From Deltaproteobacteria bacterium (GTDB taxonomy: Bacteria > Desulfobacterota > Desulfobaccia > Desulfobaccales > 0-14-0-80-60-11): DNA of 62,568 nt. The number at the start of each line of letters is the position of its first letter. Position 1 is the stretch's first letter. The position numbers and the translations under genes were made by a program. Location of the stretch: the NCBI GenBank assembly GCA_016874975.1, contig VGSQ01000003.1, positions 1 through 62,568 on the forward strand, written 5' to 3'. The notes beneath the pieces were generated by a model that had not been told where the DNA came from, did not search any database, and saw nothing but the letters and a program-made list of their open reading frames with translations. Below are positions 36,711-62,568 of this stretch, piece after piece.

Positions 36711-36720
36711 CAGGGTTAAT

Positions 36721-36793: not shown

Positions 36794-36799
36794 TGTCTC

Positions 36800-37228
36800 T
36801 CAGCGCGGTTTGCGGCGCATGAGGGGTCTGCCGGCGTCGTCCCGCAGTTGCATCACCTGGGCGCCCTTGCGCACCTCGGCGGCGATGATCAGAGGCCTCC
36901 CCCGGAAGGTCACCCGGGAGCCCTTCACCGACACCGGATCGCCCACCGCGGGCTGATAAGGCATTTTGTCGATGAAGCGGGACGGTCCCAGGAAGACGAG
37001 GATGTTCTCTTTTTCCGTCTGGAGCATAAAGCCTTTGAATTCCTGGGCGCCCTTCCGCTTGGGAGTCACCTTTTCCACCTTCACCACCTGGCCGTTGAGG
37101 ACCTCCACGGTCTGGGGGTTATAGAGTCTGGCAGGGCCGGACCCGTCGGCGAGGGGTTGGGCCGGGGTCGGGCCGGCGCCCGATAACATGAGTCCCACTA
37201 TTGCCAGGACGCTGATCAGATGTCGCAC
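36800..37228 (-). CDS. Secreted small beta-rich protein, paralog 1 (unknown function)
   Basis: Signal peptide MRHLISVLAIVGLMLSGAG. Shares LGP...VGD.V.VKGSRV...G.PLIIA..V.KG...L.LRDD.G.P with 37653..38090. Confidence 0.75.
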   Translation of the reverse strand: MRHLISVLAIVGLMLSGAGPTPAQPLADGSGPARLYNPQTVEVLNGQVVKVEKVTPKRKGAQEFKGFMLQTEKENILVFLGPSRFIDKMPYQPAVGDPVSVKGSRVTFRGRPLIIAAEVRKGAQVMQLRDDAGRPLMRRKPR

Positions 37229-37552
37229 TTGGCGCTCCTTTCTGCGATTGCCATGACTCCCGAGGGGCTTTGCGGTGAATCAGGAAAAGTTGCCGACAAT
37301 CGTTGATGAGCCTGCGGCTCTCTCCAAAAGGAAAAAAAGTCGTGGTGGGGCAGGCTTCCAGCCCGCGCCGGGACACCCGGGGGCGGGTGTCCTGCACAAA
37401 ACAACCCGAAATTCTTCCGATCCGGGTGGGCCCGGCCCTGCGGCCCCACCAAGGGCCAGGAAAAGATTCCCTTGGGGATTTGAGTGTCTTGCGGGGATAA
37501 ATGTTGCACGCAAGAACACAGATTCGCCAAAGATTTTTTCAGGTCGTGAGCC

Positions 37553-37600
37553 TGAAACCCGGAACCCGGAACCTAAAACCTGGAACCGAGAACTTGCACC
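37553..37600. repeat. Heptanucleotide tandem array (TGAAACC CGGAACC CGGAACC TAAAACC TGGAACC GAGAACT)
   Basis: Read directly. Lies 53 nt 3' of the paralog-2 stop. Confidence 0.85.
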
Positions 37601-37652
37601 AAGGCCGGTTGTCCTCCAGGGTCTTACGGGAAATTTTCAGGTCAACGAACTC

Positions 37653-38090
37653 CTATTGGGGCCCGCCGCGCCAGCGGGGCACCCCCTGGTCGTCCCGCAG
37701 CTCCAGGGTCTGTTCGCCCTTCTTGACGTGCATGGCGATGATGAGTGGTTTCCCTTCCATCATCACTCGGGAGCCCTTGACCTCCACTTGGTCGCCGACG
37801 GTCAGCTTGACGCCGCTCCGGTCCACATGCCAGGCGGGGCCCAGGTAGACCAGGAGGGATTCCTTGTCGGTCTTCAGGGTCAGGGTCATGCGGCCGGGCA
37901 GGTCGGTGCGGCCCGACTCTACGGTGCTGACCGCGGTCAATTCGCCTTTAAGGGTCTCCACCGTCTTGGGGTCGAACATCCTGACCAAGGGGCCGGCGCC
38001 GCCACCCACCCCCTGCGCCTGGGCCGATAAAGGCTCCAGGCCGGGGAGGAGCAGGAGCACGGCTGCGACTGCCAGAAACCGATGTGGCAT
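37653..38090 (-). CDS. Secreted small beta-rich protein, paralog 2 (unknown function)
   Basis: ATG 38090 gives signal MPHRFLAVAAVLLLLPGLEPLSAQA. Collinear similarity to paralog 1. Confidence 0.75.
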   Translation of the reverse strand: MPHRFLAVAAVLLLLPGLEPLSAQAQGVGGGAGPLVRMFDPKTVETLKGELTAVSTVESGRTDLPGRMTLTLKTDKESLLVYLGPAWHVDRSGVKLTVGDQVEVKGSRVMMEGKPLIIAMHVKKGEQTLELRDDQGVPRWRGGPQ

Positions 38091-38120
38091 GAGCGTTTCC
38101 TCTGTTCCGCGAGGTTGTTC

Positions 38121-38723: not shown

Positions 38724-39884
38724 TTAGGCCACCAGGGCCGCCACTTTGCGGGCCGCGTCCTGCATGTCCGCGGCCACGGTGAAGGTGAGGCCCGAGTCGT
38801 TGAGCAGGCGCCGTCCTTCCTCCACGTTGGTGCCCTCCAGGCGGACGATGACGGGCACCTGGACCTGCACCTCCCGGACGGCCTGGATGACGCCCTCGGC
38901 CAGGCGGTCGCAGCGCAGGATGCCGCCGAAGATGTTGATGAGTACTCCCTTGACCCGGGGGTCCGAGAGGATGATGCGGAAGCCGTTGGCCACCATCTCG
39001 GCGCTGGCGCCGCCGCCCACGTCCAGGAAGTTGGCCGGCTCCGCGCCCGCGGCCTTGATGAGGTCCATGGTGGCCATGGCCAGGCCGGCGCCGTTCACCA
39101 TGGCGCCCACGTTGCCCGACAGGCGGATGTAGTTCAGGTGGTGCTTCTTGGCTTCGTGCTCCAGGGGGTCCATCTCGTCGGGGTCGTCCAGGGCGGCCAG
39201 ATCGTGGTGCCGGAACAGGGCGTTGTCGTCCAGGTTGAGCTTGGCGTCCAGGGCCAGCAGGCGGCCGTCCTTGGTGAGCACCAGGGGGTTGATCTCGGCC
39301 AGGGAGCAGTCCAGGGCCACAAAGAGGCGGTAGAGGCTCTGGATGAAGCCCACCGCGGGCCGCAGGAGCGCAGGGTCCAGCTCCACCCCGAAGGCCAGGT
39401 TGCGGGCCTGGAAGGGCATGAGCCCCAGGGCCGGGTCCACCACTTCCTTAATGATGAGCTCAGGGGTTGTGGCCGCCACTTCCTCGATGTCCATGCCCCC
39501 GGCCTTGCTCATCATGATGACGGGGCGGGCCAGGCTGCGGTCCACCACGATGCCGAGGTACAGCTCCTGGGCGATGTCCTGGGCCTGCTCCACCAGGACC
39601 TTCTGCACCAGGCGGCCTTCGGGGCCGGTCTGGGGCGTGACCAGGGTCATGCCGATGATCTGGCCGGCGACCGCCTCCACCTCGTCCGGCGTGGCCGCGG
39701 TTTTGATGCCGCCGCCCTTGCCCCGGCCGCCGGCGTGGATCTGGGCCTTGACCACAAAGGGCCCCTGCTCCAGGGTTTCGGCCACTTGCCGGGCCTCCCG
39801 GGGGGTTTCGGCCACCCCGCCCGCGGGCGTGGGCGCCTTGAATTTCTGGAGCAGCTCCTTGGCCTGGTATTCGTGTATCTTCAT
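38724..39884 (-). CDS. sucC: Succinyl-CoA synthetase beta subunit (ADP-forming)
   Basis: MKIHEYQAKELLQKF..., ATP-grasp, GGRGKGGGIK, 386 aa. Confidence 0.97.
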   Translation of the reverse strand: MKIHEYQAKELLQKFKAPTPAGGVAETPREARQVAETLEQGPFVVKAQIHAGGRGKGGGIKTAATPDEVEAVAGQIIGMTLVTPQTGPEGRLVQKVLVEQAQDIAQELYLGIVVDRSLARPVIMMSKAGGMDIEEVAATTPELIIKEVVDPALGLMPFQARNLAFGVELDPALLRPAVGFIQSLYRLFVALDCSLAEINPLVLTKDGRLLALDAKLNLDDNALFRHHDLAALDDPDEMDPLEHEAKKHHLNYIRLSGNVGAMVNGAGLAMATMDLIKAAGAEPANFLDVGGGASAEMVANGFRIILSDPRVKGVLINIFGGILRCDRLAEGVIQAVREVQVQVPVIVRLEGTNVEEGRRLLNDSGLTFTVAADMQDAARKVAALVA

Positions 39885-53208: not shown

Positions 53209-53283
53209 AGGCACGTAGCTCAGGGGGAGAGCACTACCTTGACGCGGTAGGGGTCAGGGGTTCAAATCCCCTCGTGCCTACCA
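53209..53283 (+). tRNA. tRNA-Val (anticodon GAC), CCA encoded
   Basis: Manual cloverleaf: acceptor AGGCACG/CGTGCCT, D arm GCTC/GAGC, anticodon arm CTACC-TTGACGC-GGTAG, T arm AGGGG-TTCAAAT-CCCCT, 75 nt. Confidence 0.93.
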
Positions 53284-53922: not shown

Positions 53923-55338
53923 ATGGCACCTCTGACCAGCATTCAAAATGCCCCCCGCCACGACAAGAGAAATTCCCTGTCCGAGCCCCCCCTGAATTTC
54001 CTGGGACTTACCCATCAGTGGTTGATGGACCAGTTGCCGGAAGGGCTCTTTATCGTCAACACCCGCTGGCAAATCAACTTTTTTAACCACATGGCCCAAG
54101 CCATCACCGGTTTTTCCCGGGAGGAGGCCATGGGCAAGTTCTGTTGGGACATCTTCCGCACCGACCTGTGCCACAAGAGCTGCCCCATGCGGCACTCCAT
54201 GAGCAGCGGAGACACCCTGGTGGACCGGGAAGTGGAGATCACCACCAAGTTGGGGCAGAAGAAACTGGTGCTGGTGAATACAGCCCAGCTCAAGCGGGCT
54301 GACGGCCTGGTAATGGGGGGCGTGGAGACCTTTCATGAGCTGGTGTGCCCCGCAGCCGACATGGTCAACCAGGAAACCTGCTCCATCGGCGATATCGTGG
54401 GCGTCAGCCCCAGGATGCAGGAAATTATCCACAGTCTGCCGGTCATTGCGGCCGCGGATTCCAATGTCCTGATCCAGGGAGAATCGGGCACCGGTAAAGA
54501 GGTGGTGGCCCGGGCCATTCACCTGCACAGCCCGCGGTGCAAAGGCCCGTTTGTGGCGGTGAATTGTTCGGCCATCCCGGACACCCTGCTGGAATCGGAG
54601 TTGTTCGGGCACGAACGGGGGGCCTTCACCGGGGCCGTGGCCAGCAAGCCGGGGCGCTTCGAAATGGCCAAGGGCGGCACCCTGTTTCTGGACGAGATCG
54701 GCGACCTCAAGCCGGAGTTGCAGGTGAAACTCCTGCGGGTCCTGGAGGAACGGGCCTTCATGCGGGTGGGCGGCACACGCAAAATCTTGCTGGAGGCCCG
54801 AATCATCGCCGCCACCAATGTGAATCTCAAGGAGGCCATGCGCCAGGGCAGGTTCCGGGACGACCTCTACTACCGCCTCTTCACCGTGCCCGTCTATCTG
54901 CCGCCCCTGCGGGAAAAGCGGGAGGACATCCCTATCCTGGTGAAACACATCCTGGAGAAGCTCAACCGGAAATTCAACAAGCGCATCAAAGGGGTGGATC
55001 CCAAGGTGATGAAGCTCTTCTGCCGGCACCCCTGGGCGGGCAATGTCCGGGAATTGCAGCACGTCCTGGAATATTGCTTTGTCTTTGCCAAAGGGGCTCT
55101 GATCACCCAACGGCACCTGCCCCGCCTGGAGTCCGCCTGGGTGGGCCGGGAGCTGGACCTGCCCCTGGGCGAGGGCTCCACCGGCCCCCTGGAGGCCCTG
55201 GAGAAGAAAACCATTCTCACGGCCCTGGAAATGACCCAGGGGAACAAGCAGGAAACGGCCCGGATACTGCAAATCAGCCGCAGCAAGCTGTGGCGGAAGA
55301 TGCGCCTCTATCAGATCAGCGAGGTGGATTTCAAATAG
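53923..55338 (+). CDS. Sigma-54-dependent transcriptional activator (PAS - AAA+ - Fis-type HTH, no receiver domain)
   Basis: ATG 53923 (RBS GGAGGA). GESGTGKE Walker A, GAFTGA loop, C-terminal HTH ARILQISRSKLWRKM. The PAS region holds FCWDIFRTDLCHKSCPMRH. Confidence 0.93.
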   Translation: MAPLTSIQNAPRHDKRNSLSEPPLNFLGLTHQWLMDQLPEGLFIVNTRWQINFFNHMAQAITGFSREEAMGKFCWDIFRTDLCHKSCPMRHSMSSGDTLVDREVEITTKLGQKKLVLVNTAQLKRADGLVMGGVETFHELVCPAADMVNQETCSIGDIVGVSPRMQEIIHSLPVIAAADSNVLIQGESGTGKEVVARAIHLHSPRCKGPFVAVNCSAIPDTLLESELFGHERGAFTGAVASKPGRFEMAKGGTLFLDEIGDLKPELQVKLLRVLEERAFMRVGGTRKILLEARIIAATNVNLKEAMRQGRFRDDLYYRLFTVPVYLPPLREKREDIPILVKHILEKLNRKFNKRIKGVDPKVMKLFCRHPWAGNVRELQHVLEYCFVFAKGALITQRHLPRLESAWVGRELDLPLGEGSTGPLEALEKKTILTALEMTQGNKQETARILQISRSKLWRKMRLYQISEVDFK

Positions 55339-55348
55339 GGAAGGTTTT

Positions 55349-55363
55349 TCAATTTCGCGACAT
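55349..55363 (+). promoter_or_regulatory. Candidate activator-binding site 1 (TCAATTTCGCGACAT)
   Basis: Exact 15-nt match to 55478..55492. Near-palindromic core AATTTCGCGACATT. Confidence 0.5.
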
Positions 55364-55392
55364 GGGGCCTGAGAGGATATGGCCCCTTTTTT
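55364..55392 (+). terminator. Rho-independent terminator after the activator gene
   Basis: GGGGCC-(11 nt)-GGCCCC followed by TTTTTT. Confidence 0.7.
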
Positions 55393-55477
55393 ATTGAACT
55401 TTTTCATCCCAAAATGCCCTCTGTTGCAAATACGCTCATTTTGAGGCTCCGCCTTTTTTTCGGAATTAATACGCCGG

Positions 55478-55492
55478 TCAATTTCGCGACAT
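55478..55492 (+). promoter_or_regulatory. Candidate activator-binding site 2 (TCAATTTCGCGACAT)
   Basis: Second exact copy, 129 nt after the first and ~150 nt upstream of the sigma-54 promoter. Confidence 0.5.
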
Positions 55493-55643
55493 TTTCCAGC
55501 AATTTTGTAACTTAATGATATTTCATCTAATTTTATCCATAAATCCTGGAAGTGTTTTAATCCCGCCCATCCTCTGCCCTTTTTTGGCCGGCGCTCCAGC
55601 CCGACTGTCATAATCTGTTACTATTTTCAAGTAGTTATGCAAA

Positions 55644-55659
55644 TGGTCCCGTCCTTGCT
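55644..55659 (+). promoter_or_regulatory. Sigma-54 promoter of the NuoE/NuoF/HdrA-like operon
   Basis: TGGTCCCGTCCTTGCT: GG and GC with the canonical spacing, TTGCT -12 element, 50 nt upstream of ATG 55709. Confidence 0.7.
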
Positions 55660-55708
55660 TTTTACCCCGGCAAAGCTTGAAGTCGATTCAGGGGAGGAGG
55701 ATAAGGAC

Positions 55709-56176
55709 ATGAGCATTTCCTTTAAGAGTCTGGAAACCATCTTGGAACGTCATCCCCCCAGTCCCGAGCATCTCATCAGCGCCCTGCAGGACGTTCAAGC
55801 CCGTTTTCATTACCTTCCCAAGGAAGCCATGACTGCGGTCTGCGACCATCTGGGGGTGCCGGTGTCCCGGGGCTGGGCCGTAGCCACCTTCTACAAATCC
55901 TTCAGCCTGGAACCCCAGGGGGAGCACGGCATCAGCGTCTGTATGGGCACGGCCTGCCACGTGCGGGGGGCCCGCAACCTCTACGACAAGTTCCGTCGCG
56001 ACCTGGGGCTGCCCGGCGAAGAAGGCACCACCCGGGACCGGAAGTTCACCCTGCGCCAGGTGCGCTGCCTGGGATGTTGCTCCATGGGGCCGGTGGCTCA
56101 GGTGGATGAGGAGATCCACGGCAACCTGAACCAGAGAAAAGCGGGTCAGTTGATCAAGTTGTACCGGAAGAGGTGA
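55709..56176 (+). CDS. NuoE/HoxE-type thioredoxin-like [2Fe-2S] subunit
   Basis: ATG 55709 (RBS GGAGGAGG). CMGTACHVRG ... CLGCCSMGP cluster motifs. Confidence 0.9.
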   Translation: MSISFKSLETILERHPPSPEHLISALQDVQARFHYLPKEAMTAVCDHLGVPVSRGWAVATFYKSFSLEPQGEHGISVCMGTACHVRGARNLYDKFRRDLGLPGEEGTTRDRKFTLRQVRCLGCCSMGPVAQVDEEIHGNLNQRKAGQLIKLYRKR

Positions 56177-58092
56177 TGGCGATGCAGATCACGACATTGA
56201 CAGACTTGGAAGCGGTGAAGGCGCGGGGTCTGGCCCAACTCTACCCGGAAAAGCCCAAGATCCTGGTGGGGATGGCCACCTGCGGGATGGCGGCGGGGGC
56301 GCAGCGGGTCCTGGAGACCCTCCAGAAACGGGCCCAGCAGCTCCACTGGGACGGCGCCGTGGAGAAGACCGGCTGCATCGGTTTCTGCTACGAGGAGCCC
56401 CTGGTGGACCTCATCATCCCCGGGCAGCCCCGTCTGACCTACGCCAGGGTGGACCAGGAGTTCGCCGCGGAGATGATGACGGCGGTGGCGGCGGGGACGG
56501 TTCCCGAGGAGAATTTTCTGGCCCGGCTGGACGTGGACGACATGATCCTGGACGGCGGGCCCCGGCGGTTTTACGAGGGGGCTCTCAGCGGCTTCGTGGC
56601 CCAGGCGCCCCGCTATGAAGACCTGGATTTCTTTAAGCTGCAGCGCCACCTGGCCATGCGCAACTGCGGCTTCATCGACCCGGACAATCTGGAGCACTAC
56701 ATCGCCCGGGGCGGTTATTTCGCTCTGCACCGGGCCCTCACCAGCATGACCCCGGAGGAGGTCATTGAGGCCGTCACCGTGGGCGGACTCCGGGGCCGGG
56801 GCGGCGGCGGGTTCCCCACCGGGGTGAAGTGGGCCTCCTGCCGCAAGGCCAAGGGCTGGCCCAAGTATGTGTTGTGCAACGCCGACGAAGGCGACCCCGG
56901 TGCTTACATGGACCGGAGTCTGATCGAGGGCGACCCCCACGCCATTTTGGAGGGCATGCTCATCGGCGCCTATGCCATCGGCTCCACCGAGGGCTATATC
57001 TACGTCCGGGCCGAATACCCCCTGGCCGTCAAGACCCTGCAGCGGGCCATTCTCACGGCCCGGGAGGCGGGTCTGCTGGGGCAGAACATCTTCGGCGCCG
57101 GCTTCAGCTTCGACATCAAGCTCAACCTGGGCGGCGGCGCCTTCGTCTGCGGCGAGTCCACCGCGCTCATGGCCTCCATCGAGGGGAGACCGGGCGAACC
57201 CCGGGCCAAGTATGTCCGCTCCGTGGAGAAAGGCCTCTGGAACCTCCCCTCCAATCTGAACAACGTGGAAACCTGGGCCAACGTGCCCCTGATCATCGCC
57301 AAGGGGGCCGACTGGTACCGGGAGATCGGCACCGAAGGCAGCAAGGGGACCAAGATCTTCTCCCTGGTGGGCCAGGTGAAGAACGTGGGTCTGGTGGAGG
57401 TCCCCATGGGGGTCACCATCAAGGACATGGTCAACCTCATCGGCGGCGGCGTGCCCGAGGCCAGGGAGTTCAAGGCCATCCAGATCGGCGGCCCCTCGGG
57501 AGGGTGCATCCCCCGGGAGCTGTGGGACCTGCCCATCGACTTCGACTCCCTGTGGGACGCGGGCGCCATGATGGGCTCCGGCGGCATGATCGTCATGGAC
57601 AATTCCACCTGCATGGTGGACGTGGCCAAATTCTTCCTGGACTTCCTCATCGACGAATCCTGTGGCAAGTGCATCCCCTGCCGACTGGGTTTGAAACGGA
57701 TGCGGGACATCCTGGAGGAGTTTTCCTCCGGCAAAGGCTCCCTCGCTGACCTGGAAGAGTTGCAGTCCCTCTCCGAAGCGGTGCAGGACGGGGCCCTGTG
57801 CGGTTTGGGCAGCTCGGGGCCCAACCCCGTGCTCACCACGCTGCGCTATTTCCGGGACGAATATGAGGCCCACATCCTGGGGCGCCGTTGTCCGGCGGGC
57901 GTCTGCAAAGACCTGATCACTTACGCCATCAACCAGGAGCTCTGCAACGGCTGCATGGCCTGTGTCCGGGAATGCCCCCAGGGGGCCATCACCGGCGAGA
58001 AAAAGCAGCCCCACCAGTTGGACGCCACCCTGTGCATCAAGTGCGGCGCCTGTTTCGAAGTCTGCAAATTTGGCGCGGTGGAAGTTTCGTAA
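56176..58092 (+). CDS. NuoF/HoxF-type NAD(H)/FMN subunit with N-terminal thioredoxin-like and C-terminal 2x[4Fe-4S] domains
   Basis: GRGGGGFPTGVKW (FMN), ESCGKCIPCRLG (N3 cluster), CNGCMACVRECP and CIKCGACFEVC. The ATG overlaps the upstream stop (TGATG). Confidence 0.93.
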   Translation: MAMQITTLTDLEAVKARGLAQLYPEKPKILVGMATCGMAAGAQRVLETLQKRAQQLHWDGAVEKTGCIGFCYEEPLVDLIIPGQPRLTYARVDQEFAAEMMTAVAAGTVPEENFLARLDVDDMILDGGPRRFYEGALSGFVAQAPRYEDLDFFKLQRHLAMRNCGFIDPDNLEHYIARGGYFALHRALTSMTPEEVIEAVTVGGLRGRGGGGFPTGVKWASCRKAKGWPKYVLCNADEGDPGAYMDRSLIEGDPHAILEGMLIGAYAIGSTEGYIYVRAEYPLAVKTLQRAILTAREAGLLGQNIFGAGFSFDIKLNLGGGAFVCGESTALMASIEGRPGEPRAKYVRSVEKGLWNLPSNLNNVETWANVPLIIAKGADWYREIGTEGSKGTKIFSLVGQVKNVGLVEVPMGVTIKDMVNLIGGGVPEAREFKAIQIGGPSGGCIPRELWDLPIDFDSLWDAGAMMGSGGMIVMDNSTCMVDVAKFFLDFLIDESCGKCIPCRLGLKRMRDILEEFSSGKGSLADLEELQSLSEAVQDGALCGLGSSGPNPVLTTLRYFRDEYEAHILGRRCPAGVCKDLITYAINQELCNGCMACVRECPQGAITGEKKQPHQLDATLCIKCGACFEVCKFGAVEVS

Positions 58093-58107
58093 AAGGAGAA
58101 ACGGGTC

Positions 58108-58680
58108 ATGGTCACCTTCACCATCAACGGTAAGGAAGTGCAGGGCCAGAAGGACTGGACCATCCTGGACGTCGCCCGCTGGGAGGGCATCCCCATCCCC
58201 ACCCTGTGTCACCACCCGGCCGTAGAGCCCTACGGGGCCTGCCGCCTGTGCGTGGTGGAAGTGGACGAAGGGCGCCGCACCAGGATCGTGATTTCCTGCA
58301 TGTACCCCGTCAAAGAGGGCATCAAGGTGCGCACCGACACGCCCCGGGTGCAGAACGTGCGCCGCTGGATCATGCAACTGCTGCTGGATGAAAGCCCGGC
58401 CTCGTCCTACCTCAAGGAACTGGCCAAGTCTTTCGACGTCAAGCCCTCCCGCTTCCAGAAAGCGGGGGTGTCCTTCGCCTGCCATCTGTGCGGCCTGTGC
58501 GTGCGGGCCTGCCAGGAAGTGGTGGGCATCCAGGCCCTCACCTTCAGCAACCGGGGCCTGAAAAAGGAAATCGCCAGCCCCCTGCAGATGGGCTCCAAGG
58601 ATTGCATCAGTTGCGGCAACTGTCTCTATGTCTGCCCGTCCCTGGGGATGGAACAGCTTTACGCCCGGATGAGGGCTTGA
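58108..58680 (+). CDS. NuoG-N-terminus-like [2Fe-2S]/[4Fe-4S] ferredoxin subunit
   Basis: MVTFTINGKEV...PTLCHH...GACRLCVVEV, CHLCGLCVRAC, CISCGNCLYVCP. Confidence 0.85.
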   Translation: MVTFTINGKEVQGQKDWTILDVARWEGIPIPTLCHHPAVEPYGACRLCVVEVDEGRRTRIVISCMYPVKEGIKVRTDTPRVQNVRRWIMQLLLDESPASSYLKELAKSFDVKPSRFQKAGVSFACHLCGLCVRACQEVVGIQALTFSNRGLKKEIASPLQMGSKDCISCGNCLYVCPSLGMEQLYARMRA

Positions 58681-58722
58681 TACGCCCCGGTGGCAGCCTT
58701 GCCGGGGCGAAAGGAGAACCCC

Positions 58723-61146
58723 ATGAAAACCGAGGTCAGAACCGGCGTTTTCCTCTGTGAGTGCGGGGGGAAAATCAGCAGCCGCGTTGACCTGCCCCAG
58801 GTCTGCGAACTGCTGAGAGACGCCCCCCAGACTCACCTGGCCGTTTACCCGCACCCCTGCCTGACTCCCGGCCTGGAGGCCATGAAGCGGGATATTCAGG
58901 AGCAAGGGCTGGACCGCCTGCTCATCGGCGGCTGCTCTACCCGGGTCATGAAGAAGCGCTTCGCGCTCGGCCTGGCGCCGGCGGGGATGGAAAAATACCG
59001 CATCGAGATGGTCAATCTGAAGGACCACGTGGCCGCGGTGCACGACGACCCGCCCGCCGAATTGGCCCGCAAAGCCGCCGCCCTGATCGCCGGCGGCCTG
59101 GCCAGTCTGGCCCTGTTGGAGCCCTACGAGCCGACCTCGCTGCCCTTTGAGGGGCCGGCGCTCATCGTGGGAGGCGGCGTCTCCGGCTTCGTCTCCGCCC
59201 GGGAACTGGCCCGCCAGGGCATGGAAAGCATCATCCTGGCCAAGGCCTCCACCCCGGAACGGATTTTGGACAATCTCCACCGCACCTTCCCCGGCTGCCG
59301 CCTGTTCTGCGGAGATTTACGGGAGCTCCTGCGGGAGGTGTTCGCCAGCCCGCTGGTGACCGTGAAGTCCGAGGCTCCCGTGGAGTACCTGGTGGGAGGC
59401 GTGGGTGACTACCGCCTGGGGCTGCGTCAGCCCGACGGCAGTGTGGAGGAGCTGACCGGGGCGGCCATCATCGTGGCCCTGGACCAGGAATTCGCCCCGG
59501 CGGACGTGGCGCATATCGGCGGCGGCCGGCGGGTCTGCACCATGCAGGACCTGGAGGATTGCCTGGTGGAGGGCAATGTTCAACCCGGCCGGATGGTTTT
59601 CTATGTGAACAGCCCGCAGCATGGCCAGGAGGTTCAGGATTTTTCCGCCATGGCCGCCTGGCGGGACAGCCTCCTGTTGGCCCGGGAGACGCCCCAGGTG
59701 AAGCCCACGGTGGTCTATCCGGCCAACGTCAGGCTGCCCCTCTCCGGCGCCGACCTGATGGAGGCCCGGGCCCACGGCATCGGCCTCCAGGCTTACGCGC
59801 CGGAGGTGCACCCGGTAGTGCAGTCCGGCTACCTGAGCTTCGTGAGCCCCGGCGACAATCTGGAGCACGAAGTGGAGTGGGACACCCTGGTGATTCCGGG
59901 GCTGCCCACCGACCCCAGCTCCAGGTCTCAAGACCTGCTCCGGTGGCTTCCCATTTATCCTGAGAACGGCGGCCGGCTGGCCAAGAGCCATATCAAATTC
60001 TGGCCGGAGCAGATACCCGACGAGTCGCTCTTCTTCACCGGCTCCGCGGGGGGCATCTGCGACCTGAACGAGGTCCTGCAGCAGGGGAAAAAGGCGGCCC
60101 GGGGTCTCCTGAACCTCCGGGAAAAAGCCAAACAGGGCAGGCTGGTCAGTCCCGTGGTGGTGCACGTGGACCAGGATCTGTGCGAAGGCTGCGGCCTGTG
60201 CACCGAGATCTGCCCCTGCGGCGGCATCGAACACGTCAAGCCGGGGAGCGGCCCCGTCGCCCGGGAGACCGACAACCACCTGTGCAGCGGCGGCGGCACC
60301 TGCGCCGCCACCTGTCCCTACGAAGCCATCAAGGTCCTCAACAACAGCGCGCAGCAACTGGAGGCCCGGGTTAAGGCCATGATCTCCCGGATGACGGAAC
60401 ATGACGTCCTGGGCTTTGTCTGCGGCTGGGGGGGGCTGGCTTCCTCGGAACAGGCCGCGGTCAAGGGGCTGACTTACCCCCGGGGCATCCACCTCATCGC
60501 CGTCAACTGCCTGGGTTCTATCGACCCCAGCATCCTCTCCCTGGCCTTCTTAAACGGCGTCAAGGGCATCATGCTGGCCGGCTGCACGCCCACCCACTCC
60601 TGCCATTACCACTACGGCGTGGACCACTGCTGGTACCGGGTCAACGCCATGAAAAAGCTGCTCTCCCTGGCCGGGCTGGAACGGCGGCGCATCGGCATCG
60701 GCTACGTGGAAGTCAACGAGCCCGAATCCTTCGCGCGCATGGTGGAATCGCACCTGGAAGCCCTGGAGCAACTGCCTCCTCTGCCCCAGGACGACCTCAC
60801 CACGACGAAGTTGTGGGCCATCCACGCCACCATGCACCGACCCCGGGTGCGGTGGGTGTTGGGGACGAGCCTGCGGCGGCCCACGGAGAAGGAGTTCCCC
60901 GGCTCGCAGTTCAACGCGGTGGATGCAGACGAGACCATGTTGGAAGTGCTCAAGGAGGAGTACACCGTGTCTCGGATTTTCAAGGCCCTGACCGACCAGC
61001 CGCTGAATCCGCCCGACCTGGGCCGGATGCTGGCCGAGCCGGTGAAACATCTCACCCCCATCCTGATGGATCTGGCCAAAGAGGGCCGCATCGCCATCAG
61101 GGGTTGGGAAAAGGGTTATCCCCTGTACGCCATGGGCAAGGCCTGA
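58723..61146 (+). CDS. HdrA-like flavoprotein fused to an MvhD/FlpD domain plus a ~150-aa C-terminal extension
   Basis: ATG 58723 (RBS AAAGGAGAA). HdrA N-domain VFLCECGGKI...IGGCSTR, FAD fold IVGGGVSGF, CEGCGLCTEICP ferredoxin, MvhD VNCLGSIDPSILSLAFLNGVKGIMLAGC...CHYHYG. Confidence 0.88.
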   Translation: MKTEVRTGVFLCECGGKISSRVDLPQVCELLRDAPQTHLAVYPHPCLTPGLEAMKRDIQEQGLDRLLIGGCSTRVMKKRFALGLAPAGMEKYRIEMVNLKDHVAAVHDDPPAELARKAAALIAGGLASLALLEPYEPTSLPFEGPALIVGGGVSGFVSARELARQGMESIILAKASTPERILDNLHRTFPGCRLFCGDLRELLREVFASPLVTVKSEAPVEYLVGGVGDYRLGLRQPDGSVEELTGAAIIVALDQEFAPADVAHIGGGRRVCTMQDLEDCLVEGNVQPGRMVFYVNSPQHGQEVQDFSAMAAWRDSLLLARETPQVKPTVVYPANVRLPLSGADLMEARAHGIGLQAYAPEVHPVVQSGYLSFVSPGDNLEHEVEWDTLVIPGLPTDPSSRSQDLLRWLPIYPENGGRLAKSHIKFWPEQIPDESLFFTGSAGGICDLNEVLQQGKKAARGLLNLREKAKQGRLVSPVVVHVDQDLCEGCGLCTEICPCGGIEHVKPGSGPVARETDNHLCSGGGTCAATCPYEAIKVLNNSAQQLEARVKAMISRMTEHDVLGFVCGWGGLASSEQAAVKGLTYPRGIHLIAVNCLGSIDPSILSLAFLNGVKGIMLAGCTPTHSCHYHYGVDHCWYRVNAMKKLLSLAGLERRRIGIGYVEVNEPESFARMVESHLEALEQLPPLPQDDLTTTKLWAIHATMHRPRVRWVLGTSLRRPTEKEFPGSQFNAVDADETMLEVLKEEYTVSRIFKALTDQPLNPPDLGRMLAEPVKHLTPILMDLAKEGRIAIRGWEKGYPLYAMGKA

Positions 61147-61249
61147 GCTGTGGGCCTCCCCTGGCAGCAAACAACCCGGATCCGGGTTCCGGCCGAGAGG
61201 GGCTCAGCCCCAACCGGCGGGAACCCCGTCCGGGAAGCGGGAGGACGCC

Positions 61250-62356
61250 ATGAAATCGTTCACCCACCTCATTGAGGAAGTCCAGGAGCGGGGCCTCTGC
61301 CATCACTGCGGCGGCTGCGTGGCCTTCTGCACCGCCATCAACTACGGGGCCCTGGAGCTGGGGGAGGACGGCAAACCGCGGTATCGCGACCGGGACCGCT
61401 GCATCGACTGCGGCATCTGTTACGCCATCTGTCCTGAGATCGAAGAACTGGACAGAGAGACCAAACACCTGGTGAACTGGACTCCCCCCATGGGCCCCGT
61501 CCTGGGCACCGCCATGGCCCGGGCCTCTAACCCGGAGGTGTGGACCCGTGGCACCGATGGCGGCGTGGTGACTGCTCTCCTCCTGTATCTGCTGGAGCGC
61601 GGGCGCATTGACGCGGCCATCGTCAGCCGGAGAGCCGGGCCCTTTCAGCGGCAGCCCTGGCTGGCCATCTCCCGAAAGGACCTGCTGGATGCCGCGGGCT
61701 TCCACTTCGACACGGTGCCCAGCATCGCCCATTTCTCCGAAACCTACTCCACCTTTTCCCCCTCCATCATGGAATTGCAGGGGGTGGCCAAAAAGACCTA
61801 CAAACGGGTGGCCTTTGTGGGAACGCCCTGCCAGATCAAAGCCCTGCGCCGCATGGAAGTGCTGGGTGTGGTGCCTTCCGACGCCATCAAGGTGCATCTC
61901 GGTCTGTTTTGCGCCGGCAACTTCCAGTTCGGCCCGGAGGAGCGGCGGCGTCTGGAGACCATCGGCAACTTCGAGTGGGCCGACGTCCTGAAGGTGAACG
62001 TCAAGGAAGACCTGATGATCCACCTGCGTCAGGGAGGGGTCCGGCACATCCTGCTGGAACACCTGGACTTCATGAAGCGGTATGCCTGCCGGTTCTGTGA
62101 GGACTATACCGCGGAATACGCCGACCTCTCCTTCGGCGGCCTCGGCGCCCTGGAGGGCTGGACCACGGTCATCATCCGCACCCCCCTGGGGAGGGAACTG
62201 TTCAACCGGGCCCGGGGTCTGGCGCTGGAGGTGTCGTTGCACCAGGAACACTCCCTCCTGTACCAGGCCTCCATCGCCAAAGTGGCGGAGTGGTCTGAGC
62301 GCAAAAAGCGCACGGCGGCGGAGAACTGTCTGGAGCTGGGCCAGGTGGCGGTCTGA
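61250..62356 (+). CDS. FrhB/FdhB-family (F420 hydrogenase/dehydrogenase beta-type) iron-sulfur flavoprotein
   Basis: CHHCGGCVAFC and CIDCGICYAICP, then GTDGGVVTALL and FVGTPCQIKALR, characteristic of the FrhB family. Confidence 0.85.
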   Translation: MKSFTHLIEEVQERGLCHHCGGCVAFCTAINYGALELGEDGKPRYRDRDRCIDCGICYAICPEIEELDRETKHLVNWTPPMGPVLGTAMARASNPEVWTRGTDGGVVTALLLYLLERGRIDAAIVSRRAGPFQRQPWLAISRKDLLDAAGFHFDTVPSIAHFSETYSTFSPSIMELQGVAKKTYKRVAFVGTPCQIKALRRMEVLGVVPSDAIKVHLGLFCAGNFQFGPEERRRLETIGNFEWADVLKVNVKEDLMIHLRQGGVRHILLEHLDFMKRYACRFCEDYTAEYADLSFGGLGALEGWTTVIIRTPLGRELFNRARGLALEVSLHQEHSLLYQASIAKVAEWSERKKRTAAENCLELGQVAV

Positions 62357-62421
62357 CAGTCTGGAGAGGCGGAATCGTAAGAGGAGGGGCCGGCAACGGC
62401 CCACCCGTAAAGCATGAAAAG

Positions 62422-62462
62422 GGCGGTGGGGCGGGGCATCTCTGCCCGCCGCCTTTGTCTTT
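62422..62462 (+). terminator. Possible terminator after the redox operon
   Basis: GGCGGG-(9 nt)-CCCGCC followed by a T-rich stretch CTTTGTCTTT. The stem is short. Confidence 0.35.
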
Positions 62463-62568
62463 GGTGGCACATCCCGGCCTGGAGGCCGGAACCAAACCGA
62501 AAAATGATACAATTACTTTGCCAAATCAATAAGATACAGATAAATTCTTGTTGAAAAAACCAGAAACT

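What the first reader, a model, noticed from the sequence alone, without database searches (positions are those of the whole stretch)
53923..62356. Sigma-54/PAS-controlled NuoE-NuoF-ferredoxin-HdrA::MvhD-FrhB cluster with no HdrBC or other catalytic partner
Seen in sequence: five co-directional genes (55709-62356), joined by a TGATG overlap and gaps of 15, 42 and 103 nt. They encode (a) a NuoE/HoxE-type [2Fe-2S] protein; (b) a 638-aa NuoF/HoxF-type FMN/NAD(H) subunit with extra thioredoxin-like and 2x[4Fe-4S] domains; (c) a 190-aa NuoG-N-terminus-like 2Fe-2S/4Fe-4S protein; (d) an 807-aa protein joining a complete HdrA-type module to an MvhD/FlpD domain and a further ~150-aa tail whose end (ILMDLAKEGRIAIRGWEKGYPLY) looks like a winged helix; and (e) an FrhB/FdhB-family iron-sulfur flavoprotein. 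Established knowledge: HdrA is the flavin-based electron-bifurcating subunit of heterodisulfide reductase-type complexes, NuoEF-type modules couple to NAD(H), and FrhB-family modules couple to F420 or ferredoxin. Inference: the cluster has an NAD(H) port, a bifurcating flavin and a ferredoxin/F420-type port, but no HdrB/HdrC, hydrogenase, formate dehydrogenase or MetFV-type subunit, so the third substrate is not evident. I cannot map this composition onto Flx-Hdr, Mvh-Hdr, Qmo or Nfn as I know them. A dedicated activator implies conditional expression, and sucCD and frdCAB in the same window would fit an organism that needs reverse or confurcating electron flow.
Basis: partly seen in the sequence, partly recalled or inferred. 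Interest (0 to 1): 0.7.

Follow-up and report, generated by a model that had tools for sequence, protein, structure and literature searches.

The report
Bfu-type electron-bifurcating complex with degenerate HdrA
This is a sigma-54-controlled operon for a soluble iron-sulfur flavoprotein complex of the known Bfu (HydABC-like) electron-bifurcating family, joined to a stripped-down HdrA/MvhD fusion and an F420-reductase-like end module; the combination is widespread in sulfate-reducer relatives, has never been characterised, and its third substrate is still unknown.

Summary
In detail: an activator gene and five co-directional genes sit at the stated coordinates with the stated domains. The interpretation needs correcting in three ways.

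1. Genes A, B and C are not generic NuoEFG pieces. They are a BfuC-BfuB-BfuA core of the HydABC/Bfu family. B matches solved bifurcating BfuB subunits at E 1e-186 to 1e-220. So the cluster does map onto a known class, whose closest composite is Bam-Bfu.

2. Gene D is not a complete HdrA module. The whole D family lacks the inserted ferredoxin domain, the four cysteines of the thioredoxin-reductase-domain [4Fe-4S] cluster that feeds HdrBC, and the Glu and Gly-Gly FAD contacts. It looks like an electron-transfer adaptor rather than a second bifurcation site.

3. The conserved unit is activator-A-B-C-D, found in about 25 Desulfobacterota loci, each with a conserved -24/-12 sigma-54 promoter. FrhB (gene E) is an accessory limited to one sub-clade. 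Some relatives carry further HdrA/MvhD genes after E. Here the operon appears to end at E, but the contig stops 212 nt later.

Best reading: a NAD(H)/ferredoxin bifurcating core wired through D to an F420-reductase-like terminal module. This is a new variant of a known kind, and no biochemistry exists for it.

The parts
53923..55338 (+). Sigma-54 enhancer-binding activator: PAS sensor, AAA+ Sigma54_activat with GAFTGA, Fis-type HTH. The PAS domain carries an invariant C-x8-C-x3-C-P motif.
   Evidence: Pfam. NCBIfam gives only sub-threshold hits to named equivalogs. The gene sits immediately upstream of A in every related locus with enough sequence. The Cys motif is invariant in 18 orthologues.
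55349..55363 (+). First copy of the direct repeat TCAATTTCGCGACAT, a candidate activator-binding (UAS) site.
   Evidence: Sequence; found twice. It lies at the same relative position (-358) as a TGAAACA-type motif in L005. Its function is inferred.
55478..55492 (+). Second copy of TCAATTTCGCGACAT, about 150 nt upstream of the -24/-12 element.
   Evidence: Its function is inferred.
55644..55659 (+). Sigma-54 type -24/-12 promoter element TGGTCCCGTCCTTGCT, 65 nt upstream of the ATG of gene A.
   Evidence: It matches 9 of 11 consensus positions with correct GG-N10-GC spacing. An equivalent element (9-11 of 11) lies 53-130 nt upstream of gene A in 18 of 21 related loci (246 nt in a 19th, L020).
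55709..56176 (+). Gene A: BfuC/HydC-type thioredoxin-like [2Fe-2S] subunit (NuoE homologue), 155 aa.
   Evidence: Pfam 2Fe-2S_thioredx, 148.6 bits. Best solved relatives are NfnC, WorC, HydC and NiFe-Bfu C (E 4e-36 to 2e-30), ahead of complex I NuoE.
56176..58092 (+). Gene B: BfuB/HydB-type subunit. It has an N-terminal thioredoxin-like [2Fe-2S] domain, an FMN/NAD(H) site, the N3-type [4Fe-4S], the H...CPxxxC linker motif and a C-terminal 2x[4Fe-4S]. The start is ATG 56176 (overlapping the stop of A) or ATG 56182 (as called).
   Evidence: Pfam. End-to-end alignment to solved bifurcating BfuB/HydB/NfnB/WorB at E 1e-186 to 1e-220, against 1e-109 or weaker for non-bifurcating NuoF/FdsB.
58108..58680 (+). 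Gene C: minimal BfuA, 190 aa, with one [2Fe-2S] (C34, C45, C48, C64) and two [4Fe-4S] (C124...C134, C165...C175). It lacks the His-ligated A3/N5-type cluster and has no catalytic domain.
   Evidence: Pfam Fer2_4 + Fer4. The best solved relative is WorA (9mqx_A), the small BfuA of the tungsten aldehyde oxidoreductase Bfu enzyme: E 5e-37 over residues 4-178. WorA is described as lacking A3 in PMC12318220.
58723..61146 (+). Gene D: 807-aa HdrA-like::MvhD::winged-helix fusion. Domains: N-terminal 4-Cys domain (residues 1-135); degenerate TrxR-like flavin domain (143-465); 2x[4Fe-4S] ferredoxin domain (478-540); MvhD/FlpD [2Fe-2S] domain (562-684); helical linker plus winged helix (685-807).
   Evidence: Predicted structure has pLDDT 85.5. 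The best fold match is HdrA 5odc_A, E 3.5e-32. Tail.
61250..62356 (+). Gene E: FrhB-family flavo-iron-sulfur module with an N-terminal 2x[4Fe-4S] ferredoxin domain, 368 aa.
   Evidence: Pfam FrhB_FdhB_N/C. The best solved relatives are the plug-in F420-reductase subunits of the Ca. Ethanoperedens Fwd and CODH complexes (8rja_E 2e-45, 8riu_B 6e-42), ahead of FrhB itself (PMC11493965). It scores below the NCBIfam frhB equivalog cut-off (135 vs 331.5).
62419..62464 (+). GC-rich hairpin followed by UUUGUCUUU: the likely intrinsic terminator of the operon.
   Evidence: RNA fold -30.6 kcal/mol with a 17-bp stem, z = -1.95. The simple scanner missed it because of a bulge. No + strand ORF begins in the 340 nt after E in L002, where a convergent gene is called at the contig end.

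Best explanation
The locus encodes a soluble, multi-subunit redox enzyme of the Bfu (HydABC-type) electron-bifurcating family. It is expressed from a sigma-54 promoter under a dedicated PAS-domain activator.

Proposed roles:
- Genes B and A (BfuB, BfuC) form the bifurcating core. NAD(H) binds at the FMN of B, and ferredoxin binds at its C-terminal 2x[4Fe-4S] domain.
- Gene C (a minimal BfuA) relays mid-potential electrons through one [2Fe-2S] and two [4Fe-4S] clusters.
- Gene D is a derived HdrA::MvhD::winged-helix fusion. It has lost the two branches that make canonical HdrA a bifurcating hub: the cluster leading to HdrBC and the inserted ferredoxin domain leading to ferredoxin. It therefore most likely works as an electron-transfer adaptor, with MvhD [2Fe-2S], three [4Fe-4S] clusters and possibly a flavin.
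- In this sub-clade, gene E is the terminal module. It is an FrhB-type FAD/[4Fe-4S] protein with its own ferredoxin-like docking domain.

The most likely overall reaction is reversible: NADH + 2 reduced ferredoxin + 2 X(ox) <-> NAD+ + 2 oxidised ferredoxin + 2 XH2. X is a mid-potential two-electron carrier bound by the FrhB-type flavin, with F420 as the obvious candidate. That would make this a bacterial, multi-subunit counterpart of the predicted 'F420-Bfu'.

Shown: gene content, family assignments, cofactor-ligand patterns, conserved synteny and the conserved sigma-54 promoter.

Inferred: that the five proteins form one complex, the order of electron flow, the adaptor role of D, and the identity of X.

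The confidence of 0.45 applies to the whole chain, including the adaptor role of D and E as the terminal module. Assignment to the Bfu family alone would rate about 0.85, and F420 as X about 0.3.
For: 1. Bfu core.
- B aligns end to end with structurally characterised bifurcating BfuB subunits (9bov, 8oh5, 9n5u, 7t2r, 7q4v, 9mqx, 8a6t, 7p5h) at E 1e-186 to 1e-220. The alignment covers the N-terminal Trx-like domain, the ESCGKCxPCR...LCGLG motif, the H-x5-CPxxxC linker and the C-terminal 2x[4Fe-4S].
- Non-bifurcating NuoF/FdsB score 1e-109 or weaker.
- A and C have the same set of best relatives.
- PMC9304861 defines the family by this BfuBC core.

2. D is HdrA-derived but stripped.
- Profile and fold matches to HdrA.
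- The alignment shows LVEK...LGG replaced by non-conserved residues, and IQCVGSRD...YCSRVCC replaced by VFWVNS...AAW, in every family member.
- There is no invariant Cys between residues 72 and 486.
- The N-terminal 4 Cys, the C-terminal ferredoxin Cys and the MvhD Cys are invariant.
- In canonical HdrA the missing elements are the exits to HdrBC and to ferredoxin (PMC9012536).

3. One unit.
- The order activator-A-B-C-D is identical in about 25 loci spanning 34-100% D identity across Desulfobaccales, Syntrophobacterales, Desulfarculales and Desulfobacterales.
- Overlapping or short junctions with ribosome-binding sites.
- A conserved -24/-12 element and a terminator-like hairpin after E.

4. 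E as a plug-in end module.
- It has the same three-part architecture as the F420-reductase subunits that dock by an N-terminal ferredoxin domain onto the FeS chains of CODH and Fwd in Ca. Ethanoperedens.
- E directly follows D in all 11 related loci examined from the sub-clade with about 65% or more D identity (L005, L009-L012, L090-L094); L001-L003 are other assemblies of the window's own sequence.

5. Thermodynamic fit. F420 (about -340 to -360 mV) lies between NAD and ferredoxin, as Bfu third substrates do (table in PMC9304861).
Against: - No biochemical data exist for any member.
- F420 biosynthesis was not demonstrated for this organism or lineage. E is below the FrhB equivalog cut-off, and some FrhB-family proteins (HCAR/DVR type) do not use F420.
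- E is absent from most of the D family: L006, L008 and L013-L037. The conserved A-B-C-D unit must therefore work with something else there, and E may be peripheral.
- GxGxxG, G225/G228, G440 and Q454-G455 are conserved between D and canonical HdrA. D may still bind a flavin and could itself be a catalytic or second bifurcating site.
- Several close relatives continue after E with a tandem HdrA, an MvhD::WH protein and a selenocysteine-type HdrA. The physiological complex may be larger in those genomes.
- The window's contig ends 212 nt after E.
Confidence: 0.45

Rival explanations
1. Tandem bifurcation as proposed for Bam-Bfu. The Bfu core supplies mid-potential electrons to a flavin in D, which bifurcates a second time. 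One branch goes to E (ferredoxin or F420). The other goes to a high-potential acceptor encoded elsewhere, such as a DsrC-type or HdrBC/HdrD-type disulfide reductase.
For: - The composition equals BamGHI + BamE + BamF, minus the catalytic BamBCD (PMC9304861).
- The core glycines of the FAD fold are retained in D.
- CCG-domain (HdrB/HdrD/DsrK-like) genes lie within a few kb in several loci: L006 has DsrC-like + NarI-like + CCG upstream, L008 has a CCG gene upstream, and L020 has HdrC-like + CCG downstream.
- Hmc-like cytochrome/FeS/NrfD genes follow D in L015, and an Hmc-like cytochrome follows D in L028.
Against: - D lacks the four Cys of the cluster that connects the HdrA FAD to HdrC. It also lacks the inserted ferredoxin domain, so both canonical exits are missing.
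- It lacks the FAD ribose-binding Glu and the GG motif.
- The CCG neighbours are not conserved, are often on the other strand or separated by gaps of 400 nt or more, and such genes are common in these genomes.
- None was seen in the parts of this window covered by gene calls.
Confidence: 0.15
2. The conserved A-B-C-D complex is itself the enzyme. The TrxR-like domain of D reduces a small sulfur compound or a protein disulfide/persulfide (polysulfide, CoA persulfide or a DsrC-like protein). The winged helix serves as the docking site for a protein substrate. E is a lineage-specific extra port.
For: - A-B-C-D is conserved without E in most loci, so D must carry the terminal function there.
- D derives from a thioredoxin-reductase fold.
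- In L006 a CoA-disulfide-reductase/rhodanese-type gene follows D and a DsrC-like gene lies upstream.
- The window protein and its closest relatives have C192 and C196 at the position of the HdrA CxxC-like motif.
- The activator's PAS domain has an invariant three-Cys motif that could sense thiol or redox state.
Against: - C192 and C196 are not conserved across the family, so there is no conserved redox-active dithiol.
- The same helical-linker + winged-helix tail occurs on small stand-alone MvhD proteins in Hdr-type clusters, which points to a structural role.
- The neighbour evidence comes from single loci.
Confidence: 0.15
3. The genes are neighbours but do not form one enzyme. A-B-C would be a stand-alone NADH:ferredoxin module or part of an enzyme encoded elsewhere, and D and E would belong to a separate Hdr-like system.
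For: The 103-nt D-E gap and the 42-nt C-D gap could hold internal signals. E is dispensable in many genomes.
Against: - The order A-B-C-D is invariant over about 25 loci down to 34% identity.
- The activator and -24/-12 element always sit in front of A, and none was found in front of D or E.
- A minimal BfuA without a catalytic domain needs a partner (PMC12318220).
Confidence: 0.05

Closest known systems
Bfu (BfuABC/HydABC) family of electron-bifurcating enzymes, Type 2 (small BfuA plus extra subunits), e.g. WorABCSL of Acetomicrobium mobile (PDB 9MQX)
   Same: - BfuC [2Fe-2S].
- BfuB with an N-terminal Trx-like domain, FMN/NAD(H) site and C-terminal 2x[4Fe-4S].
- A minimal BfuA lacking the A3 cluster and any catalytic domain. 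WorA is the best solved relative of gene C.
   Different: The extra subunits here are an HdrA-like::MvhD::WH fusion and an FrhB-type protein, instead of a tungsten aldehyde oxidoreductase with a polyferredoxin. Gene C also lacks the zinc-finger C-terminal domain and adaptor helix of WorA (190 vs 247 aa).
Bam-Bfu, the class II benzoyl-CoA reductase BamBCDEFGHI of Geobacter/Desulfosarcina
   Same: It is the only described Bfu enzyme that combines BfuCBA homologues (BamGHI) with an HdrA-like (BamE) and an MvhD-like (BamF) module. It also comes from Desulfobacterota.
   Different: There is no tungsten BamB, no BamC and no CCG-type BamD. HdrA and MvhD are fused, and the HdrA part has lost the TrxR-domain cluster and the inserted ferredoxin domain. 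The gene order differs (Bfu genes first). An FrhB-type subunit is present.
Canonical bifurcating HdrA of MvhADG-HdrABC (PDB 5ODC), and HdrA2 (HdrA::MvhD fusion) of Methanosarcina HdrA2B2C2
   Same: An N-terminal 4-Cys domain, a TrxR-like fold with GxGxxG, and a C-terminal 2x[4Fe-4S] domain. An MvhD [2Fe-2S] domain is fused at the C-terminus, as in HdrA2 and QmoB.
   Different: Identity to canonical HdrA is 25-27%. There is no inserted ferredoxin domain, none of the C386/C399/C403/C404-type cysteines, no Glu/GG FAD contacts, no HdrBC partner in the operon, and an additional 120-aa helical + winged-helix tail.
Plug-in F420-reductase subunits of Ca. Ethanoperedens thermophilum CODH (zeta, 8RIU_B) and Fwd (FwdI, 8RJA_E); predicted F420-Bfu of Methanosaetaceae
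   Same: Gene E has the same architecture: an N-terminal 2x[4Fe-4S] docking domain, an FrhB-type FAD/[4Fe-4S] domain and a short C-terminal extension. The idea of a Bfu core coupled to F420 has been proposed (PMC9304861).
   Different: This is a bacterial protein in a lineage not known to use F420. It is a separate subunit rather than a domain of BfuA. F420 binding is untested.

Membership tests
Bfu (BfuABC) electron-bifurcating family | BfuB with an FMN/NAD(H) domain and the N3-type [4Fe-4S] (B1) | tested here: met
   Complex1_51K 145.8 bits and NADH_4Fe-4S 101.7 bits. The ESCGKCxPCR...LCGLG motif aligns with all solved BfuB subunits.
Bfu (BfuABC) electron-bifurcating family | BfuB extra clusters absent from non-bifurcating NuoF homologues: N-terminal Trx-like [2Fe-2S] (B5) and C-terminal 2x[4Fe-4S] (B3, B4) | tested here: met
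   Residues 29-118 align with the N-terminal domains of 9bov_B, 8oh5_B and 9n5u_B, including the Cys positions. Residues 579-638 hold two CxxCxxCxxxC motifs.
Bfu (BfuABC) electron-bifurcating family | B2 / zinc-site ligands (Cys before B1, the C476 position of A. mobile, His and the CPxxxC linker) | tested here: inconclusive
   The stCmvd Cys, the AHI His and CPAGVC are conserved. The position equivalent to A. mobile C476 is Ser (Thr in about two thirds of BfuB according to PMC9304861). Read by eye from the alignments; the ligand assignment was not verified on a structure.
Bfu (BfuABC) electron-bifurcating family | BfuC [2Fe-2S], and BfuA with at least the A1 and A2 clusters | tested here: met
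   A: 2Fe-2S_thioredx, with NfnC/WorC/HydC as best relatives. C: four Cys for a [2Fe-2S] and eight Cys for two [4Fe-4S]; aligns over 4-178 with WorA.
Bfu (BfuABC) electron-bifurcating family | Coupled reduction/oxidation of NAD(H), ferredoxin and a third substrate | not testable with these tools
   Needs enzyme assays.
Canonical bifurcating HdrA | N-terminal domain with four Cys, and a C-terminal 2x[4Fe-4S] ferredoxin domain | tested here: met
   C12, C14, C46 and C71 are invariant. C487/490/493/497 and C521/527/531 are invariant. The second Cys of motif 2 is Gly in most members, and C499 is an extra invariant Cys within the D family, not conserved in canonical HdrA.
Canonical bifurcating HdrA | Intact FAD site: GxGxxG, an acidic residue at the end of beta-2, and the GG motif | tested here: inconclusive
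   GGGVSG, G225/G228, G440 and Q454-G455 are conserved. The LVEK Glu and the LGG motif present in all seven canonical HdrAs of the alignment are replaced by variable residues in all D-family members. Pfam FAD families match only the first ~30 residues, below cut-off.
Canonical bifurcating HdrA | [4Fe-4S] cluster of the thioredoxin-reductase domain (C386, C399, C403, C404 in 5ODC), the exit to HdrC | tested here: not met
   IQCVGSRD...YCSRVCC in canonical HdrA aligns with VFWVNSPQ...AAW in D. There is no invariant Cys between residues 72 and 486.
Canonical bifurcating HdrA | Inserted ferredoxin domain (two [4Fe-4S]), the exit to ferredoxin | tested here: not met
   HdrA residues 237-315 have no counterpart. 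The profile alignment jumps from D 236 to D 301, matching HdrA 236 to 396. There are no Cys motifs in that region.
Canonical bifurcating HdrA | Encoded or assembled with HdrB/HdrC (CCG domain) | tested here: not met
   No CCG-domain gene occurs in the operon in the window or in any of the loci inspected. None was seen in the parts of the window covered by gene calls.
MvhD/FlpD | FlpD domain with the [2Fe-2S] cysteines | tested here: met
   PF02662 101 bits against a 22.3 cut-off. Matches solved MvhD chains at E 5e-23. C567, C596, C621 and C627 are invariant.
FrhB/FdhB family (F420-reactive flavo-FeS proteins) | FrhB_FdhB_N and FrhB_FdhB_C domains | tested here: met
   60.5 and 115.8 bits, both above cut-off.
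FrhB/FdhB family (F420-reactive flavo-FeS proteins) | Orthology with FrhB of F420-reducing hydrogenase | tested here: not met
   NCBIfam TIGR03289 frhB scores 135 bits against a 331.5 cut-off, and there are no frhA/frhG genes. E is a family member, not the hydrogenase subunit.
FrhB/FdhB family (F420-reactive flavo-FeS proteins) | F420 binding, and F420 present in the organism | not tested
   Only the 62.6-kb window and +/-10 kb of related loci were available. No F420 biosynthesis gene was seen in the parts of the window covered by gene calls.
Bam-Bfu (class II benzoyl-CoA reductase) | Tungsten BamB with BamC, and a CCG-type BamD | tested here: not met
   None of these genes is in the operon or in the parts of the window covered by gene calls, or in related loci.
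Bacterial enhancer-binding protein (sigma-54 activator) with cognate promoter | AAA+ Sigma54_activat domain with GAFTGA, a C-terminal HTH, and a -24/-12 promoter in front of the target operon | tested here: met
   Pfam. GAFTGA is in the translation. TGG-N8-TTGC lies at 55644-55659 and is conserved in 19 of 21 loci. Activation itself was not tested.

The most novel reading that the evidence does not exclude
The D family is a previously undescribed 'pseudo-HdrA' adaptor: HdrA::MvhD::winged helix, with both bifurcation exits lost and the flavin site degraded. It would let a Bfu NAD(H)/ferredoxin bifurcating core plug into interchangeable end modules in Desulfobacterota.

In this window the end module is an FrhB-type flavoprotein. 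That would give the first bacterial NADH/ferredoxin/F420 (or related deazaflavin or unknown hydride carrier) bifurcating transhydrogenase, under a thiol- or redox-sensing sigma-54 activator.
Probability: 0.3. Interest if true: 0.7.

Novelty: new variant of a known kind. Interest (0 to 1): 0.55.

Why it matters
Bfu enzymes are the least understood class of electron-bifurcating enzyme, and many of their clades have no assigned third substrate.

This locus defines a well-conserved clade across several orders of Desulfobacterota, including the cultured Dethiosulfatarculus sandiegensis. It is tightly regulated, and its Bfu core is joined to an HdrA derivative that has lost exactly the elements that make HdrA bifurcate.

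Working out its reaction would do three things:
1. Assign a function to a recurrent 'nuoEFG-mvhD/hdrA' gene set that genome papers have noted for more than a decade without explanation.
2. Show whether HdrA-like modules can serve as plain wires.
3. Possibly reveal an F420-linked (or new-carrier-linked) redox balancing step in sulfate reducers and syntrophs.

If the third substrate turns out to be ordinary, the value is mainly better annotation. These proteins are currently named 'heterodisulfide reductase subunit A', 'hydrogenase iron-sulfur subunit' or 'coenzyme F420 hydrogenase subunit beta', and none of these names is correct.

Tried and rejected
- **Partners elsewhere in the window.** I looked for hdrBC, dsrC, hydrogenase, FDH, metFV and F420 genes. 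Two context look-ups, covering roughly window 12-48 kb, show flagellar, mfd, surA, aspS, sucCD, RNase Y and recD2-type genes only.
- **Truncation by the window end.** All assemblies of this sequence stop within 340 nt of E. The nearest relative with a long contig (L093, 79% D identity) ends the operon at E, followed by an alpha-2-macroglobulin gene. Other relatives (L090-L092, L094) continue with HdrA/MvhD genes. So truncation is unlikely here but cannot be excluded.
- **Conserved downstream partner in the E-less clade.** I Pfam-scanned 20 downstream ORFs from 9 loci. The neighbours are heterogeneous: Hmc-like cytochrome, HdrCB-like, Usp, NifU, Mrp/NUBPL-type ATPases, a porin, two-component systems, thiolase and Lon. 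No conserved partner emerged.
- **Identifying the D tail by fold.** It gives only generic winged-helix matches (Z-alpha, ArsR/SmtB, HlyU) with E >= 0.008. Pfam hits are weak and scattered over many wHTH families. No specific function follows.
- **Literature.** I found no paper characterising this composition. The review on HdrA module diversity (Appel et al. 2021) is not held. Schut et al. 2022 mention HdrA only in Bam-Bfu, and their one held supplementary text file has no Hdr, heterodisulfide, Desulf- or Syntroph- entries. The Desulfotignum phosphitoxidans genome paper lists nuoEFG-mvhD and nuoGEF-mvhD-hdrA units without analysis.
- **Considered and rejected.** Flx-Hdr, because FlxA is not a NuoF homologue and HdrABC are absent. 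Qmo, because there is no QmoC or apr context. Nfn/StnABC, because BfuA carries no GltD-type NADPH domain.
- **F420 in Desulfobacterota.** The literature search was uninformative.

Full report
**What is there**

The + strand from 53923 to 62356 carries six ORFs. Independent gene callers found the same ORFs on other assemblies of the same sequence from Lake Tanganyika metagenomes.

Pfam places them as follows:
- Activator (53923-55338): PAS / Sigma54_activat / HTH_8, with GAFTGA visible in the translation.
- A: thioredoxin-like [2Fe-2S] protein.
- B: NuoF-type protein with Complex1_51K, NADH_4Fe-4S and two Fer4 motifs.
- C: Fer2_4 + Fer4 protein.
- D: 807-aa protein in which only Fer4 and FlpD pass the cut-offs.
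- E: FrhB_FdhB_N/C protein with an N-terminal Fer4 pair.

The stop of A overlaps an ATG of B, and the gaps are 15, 42 and 103 nt. Each start has a Shine-Dalgarno-like sequence, and GC3 is 0.79-0.88 throughout.

A GC-rich hairpin followed by UUUGUCUUU lies at 62419-62464. The window ends at 62568.

**A-B-C is a Bfu core, not a loose set of complex I pieces**

B aligns from its N-terminal thioredoxin-like domain to its C-terminal 2x[4Fe-4S] domain with every structurally characterised bifurcating BfuB/HydB. These are NfnB of Caldicellulosiruptor and Thermococcus, StnC of Sporomusa, NiFe-HydB and WorB of Acetomicrobium, and HydB of Thermotoga, Thermoanaerobacter and Acetobacterium. E-values run from 1e-186 to 1e-220. 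The best non-bifurcating homologue scores 1e-109.

The motif around the N3-type cluster and the H-x5-CPxxxC linker are conserved. The position equivalent to C476 of the A. mobile enzyme is Ser, where most BfuB have Thr.

A has NfnC, WorC and HydC as its best solved relatives.

The best relative of C is WorA (9MQX_A). WorA is the minimal BfuA of the tungsten aldehyde oxidoreductase Bfu enzyme, and it lacks the A3 cluster and any catalytic domain.

Schut et al. 2022 define the Bfu family by exactly this BfuBC core. They classify enzymes with a small BfuA plus extra subunits as Type 2, and they list Bam-Bfu as a member that also holds an HdrA-type module. So the composition does map onto a known class.

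**D is an HdrA derivative that has lost what makes HdrA a bifurcating hub**

A profile of ten D-family members hits HdrA of the solved Mvh-Hdr and Fdh-Hdr complexes, and the MvhD subunits. The AlphaFold model (pLDDT 85.5) has HdrA chains as its best fold matches (5odc_A, E 3.5e-32).

The alignment is discontinuous, however. D residues 4-236 match HdrA 3-236, and D 301-548 match HdrA 396-643. The inserted ferredoxin domain (HdrA 237-315) has no counterpart.

In a joint alignment, all seven canonical HdrAs carry LVEK...LGG and IQCVGSRD...YCSRVCC. All D-family members have variable residues and VFWVNS...AAW at those positions.

Across the D family there is no invariant cysteine between residues 72 and 486.

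Retained and invariant are:
- the four N-terminal cysteines;
- the cysteines of the C-terminal ferredoxin domain;
- the four MvhD cysteines;
- the GxGxxG and several glycines of the flavin fold.

According to the description of the HdrABC-MvhADG structure in Chadwick et al. [quoted passage not shown] They leave through the thioredoxin-reductase-domain cluster to HdrBC, and through the N-terminal cluster and the inserted ferredoxin domain to ferredoxin. D keeps the entry and has lost both exits.

This fits the absence of HdrBC. It argues that D is a wire or adaptor, perhaps with a flavin, rather than a second bifurcation site.

**The tail of D**

Residues 685-807 are predicted as three helices followed by a winged helix. 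Fold matches are generic (Z-alpha, ArsR/SmtB-type; E >= 0.008, TM up to 0.8 on the target). Pfam matches are weak and spread over many wHTH families.

The same MvhD + linker + winged-helix arrangement occurs as a separate 252-aa protein in related clusters. It shows 24% identity over 236 residues to the C-terminal 246 aa of D, E 1e-18.

A profile of the tail finds only 175 representatives among 1.84 billion protein clusters. They sit either at the end of ~810-aa D-type proteins or at the end of 160-260-aa proteins.

It is therefore a rare, MvhD-associated module. A structural or docking role is the simplest reading, and DNA binding is not excluded.

**Conservation and the real unit**

The D family has about 90 clusters at 90% identity in the protein search, with a sharp drop from 592 to 161 bits to canonical HdrA. 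It occurs in MAGs labelled Desulfobaccales, Syntrophobacterales/Syntrophales, Desulfarculaceae, Desulfobacterales, Desulfatitalea and Desulfotignum, and in the cultured Dethiosulfatarculus sandiegensis.

In every locus with enough upstream sequence, the order activator-A-B-C-D is identical. This holds for about 25 loci with D identity of 34-100%.

E follows D only in the sub-clade with roughly 65% or more identity to the window protein. In the others D is followed by unrelated and variable genes, often on the other strand.

Within the E-bearing sub-clade there are two forms:
- **Short form**, ending at E: L093 (79% identity, the closest relative with a long contig), L005 and L009.
- **Long form**, in which E is followed within ~70-300 nt by a tandem HdrA of 880-1020 aa (after a second, receiver-fused FrhB paralogue in L092), then an MvhD::WH protein and, in L090, L092 and L094, a further HdrA whose gene call is split as expected for selenocysteine: L090, L091, L092 and L094.

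None of these clusters contains a CCG-domain protein or any recognisable substrate-converting enzyme.

The window looks like the short form. It has a terminator-like hairpin, no + strand ORF in the 340 nt after E in L002, and a convergent gene call at that contig's end. But the contig ends there in all assemblies, so this is not certain.

**Regulation**

A -24/-12 element (TGGTCCCGTCCTTGCT, 55644-55659) lies 65 nt upstream of A. Equivalent elements matching 9-11 of 11 consensus positions lie 53-130 nt upstream of A in 18 of 21 related loci, and 246 nt upstream in a 19th.

In the more distant clade, the region 80-250 nt further upstream carries TGAAACA-N5-TGTTTCA palindromes and arrays of TGTTTCA at ~10-nt spacing. 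These are typical of enhancer-binding-protein sites.

The window instead has two copies of TCAATTTCGCGACAT, at 55349 and 55478.

The PAS domain of the activator has an invariant C-x8-C-x3-C-P motif in all 18 orthologues aligned. This suggests a metal, Fe-S or thiol-based signal, but the signal itself is unknown.

**Most likely mechanism**

The BfuBC core binds NAD(H) and ferredoxin and is the bifurcating or confurcating site. C passes mid-potential electrons on. D extends the chain. E is the terminal module.

The closest solved relatives of E are the F420-reductase subunits that dock by an N-terminal ferredoxin domain onto CODH and formylmethanofuran dehydrogenase in Ca. Ethanoperedens. There they make those enzymes reduce F420.

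F420 has the right potential for a Bfu third substrate, and an 'F420-Bfu' has been predicted for Methanosaetaceae.

The proposed reaction is therefore the reversible coupling of NADH and reduced ferredoxin oxidation to reduction of F420 or a similar carrier.

Weak points:
- Nothing shows that this lineage makes F420.
- E scores far below the FrhB equivalog cut-off.
- E is absent from most of the family.
- D may still hold a flavin.

Rival readings are listed with their tests: a Bam-like second bifurcation at D with an unlinked disulfide-type acceptor; a sulfur or disulfide reductase activity of D itself; and unrelated neighbours.

**Comparison and novelty**

The locus is a member of the Bfu family by every sequence feature that could be tested.

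It is not a canonical HdrA system, because three defining features were tested and not met. It is not Bam, because BamBCD are absent. It is not Flx-Hdr, Qmo or Nfn.

Genome papers have noticed nuoEFG-mvhD/hdrA gene sets in sulfate reducers, for example in Desulfotignum phosphitoxidans, but gave no analysis. I found no biochemical or structural work on this composition.

I rate it a new variant of a known kind, of moderate to good interest. The surprise is not a new principle. It is a widespread, tightly regulated Bfu clade whose partner is a degenerate HdrA and whose substrate is still open.

**Limits**

- All functional statements rest on sequence, predicted structure and gene context.
- Ligand assignments were read from alignments, not from structures.
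- Only +/-10 kb of related loci could be inspected.
- Neighbour ORFs in loci from the genome collection were called with a simple longest-ORF rule.

Noticed in passing
window 62464-62505, and L002 9502-9543 / 9615-9656: A 42-nt hairpin-containing element (GTGGCACATCCCGGCCTGGAGGCCGGAACCAAACCGAAAAAT) lies just after the terminator. It recurs 113 nt further on at 81% identity, beyond the window end. Four independent assemblies all break within 340 nt after gene E, which suggests a dispersed repeat or a strain-variable region there.
   Followed up: partly
window 53209-53283 (+): tRNA-Val(GAC) lies between the frd/sdh cytochrome b gene and the activator gene. The long ORFs listed over this stretch are spurious.
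   Followed up: yes
window about 34800-38100 (- strand), between sucC (38724-39884) and sucD (33938-34810): sucC and sucD are separated by about 4 kb. The insert holds two MamS/MamX-like (PF26390) genes, a small ORF and an N6/N4 DNA methyltransferase. It coincides with a GC dip to 0.56-0.58, so it looks like an insertion into the suc operon.
   Followed up: no
window 53923-54400 (activator PAS domain); orthologues in L005-L035: An invariant C-x8-C-x3-C-P motif (FCWDIFRTDLCHKSCP) is present in the PAS domain of all 18 orthologous activators. It may be a metal, Fe-S or thiol sensing site. I did not identify a characterised counterpart.
   Followed up: partly
Activator-to-A intergenic regions of L008, L013, L017, L020-L035: Conserved TGAAACA-N5-TGTTTCA palindromes lie about 150-190 nt upstream of gene A, with arrays of TGTTTCA repeated every ~10 nt further upstream. 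These are probable enhancer sites. The window clade has largely replaced them (TCAATTTCGCGACAT x2 in the window).
   Followed up: partly
L092 9001-10500; proteins P0129, P0158, P0159, P0162, P0195: Some relatives carry a second FrhB paralogue fused to a response-regulator receiver domain (about 500 aa), directly after the first FrhB gene. A phosphorylation-controlled redox module would be unusual.
   Followed up: no
L090 10214-17461, L091 10380-14209, L092 10669-15786, L094 13720-20758: Long-form clusters continue after FrhB with a tandem HdrA (880-1020 aa), a polyferredoxin, an MvhD::winged-helix protein and a second HdrA. Several of these genes are called in two pieces (about 62 aa + about 920 aa; 67 aa + 167 aa), as expected for in-frame UGA selenocysteine codons.
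   Followed up: partly
L012 2979-4926: In a Lake Tanganyika MAG, the D-E genes are followed directly by a second, divergent activator-A pair (54% and 49% identity). Two paralogous clusters therefore sit in tandem.
   Followed up: no
L091 14326-17325: Three tandem copies of an IS1595-family transposase gene are inserted in the long-form cluster.
   Followed up: no
window 55443-55465 (+): A terminator-like hairpin with a T-run lies between the activator gene and the sigma-54 promoter. This is consistent with separate transcription of the activator.
   Followed up: no
window 10001-12000: A second GC dip (0.55 against about 0.65) was not examined.
   Followed up: no
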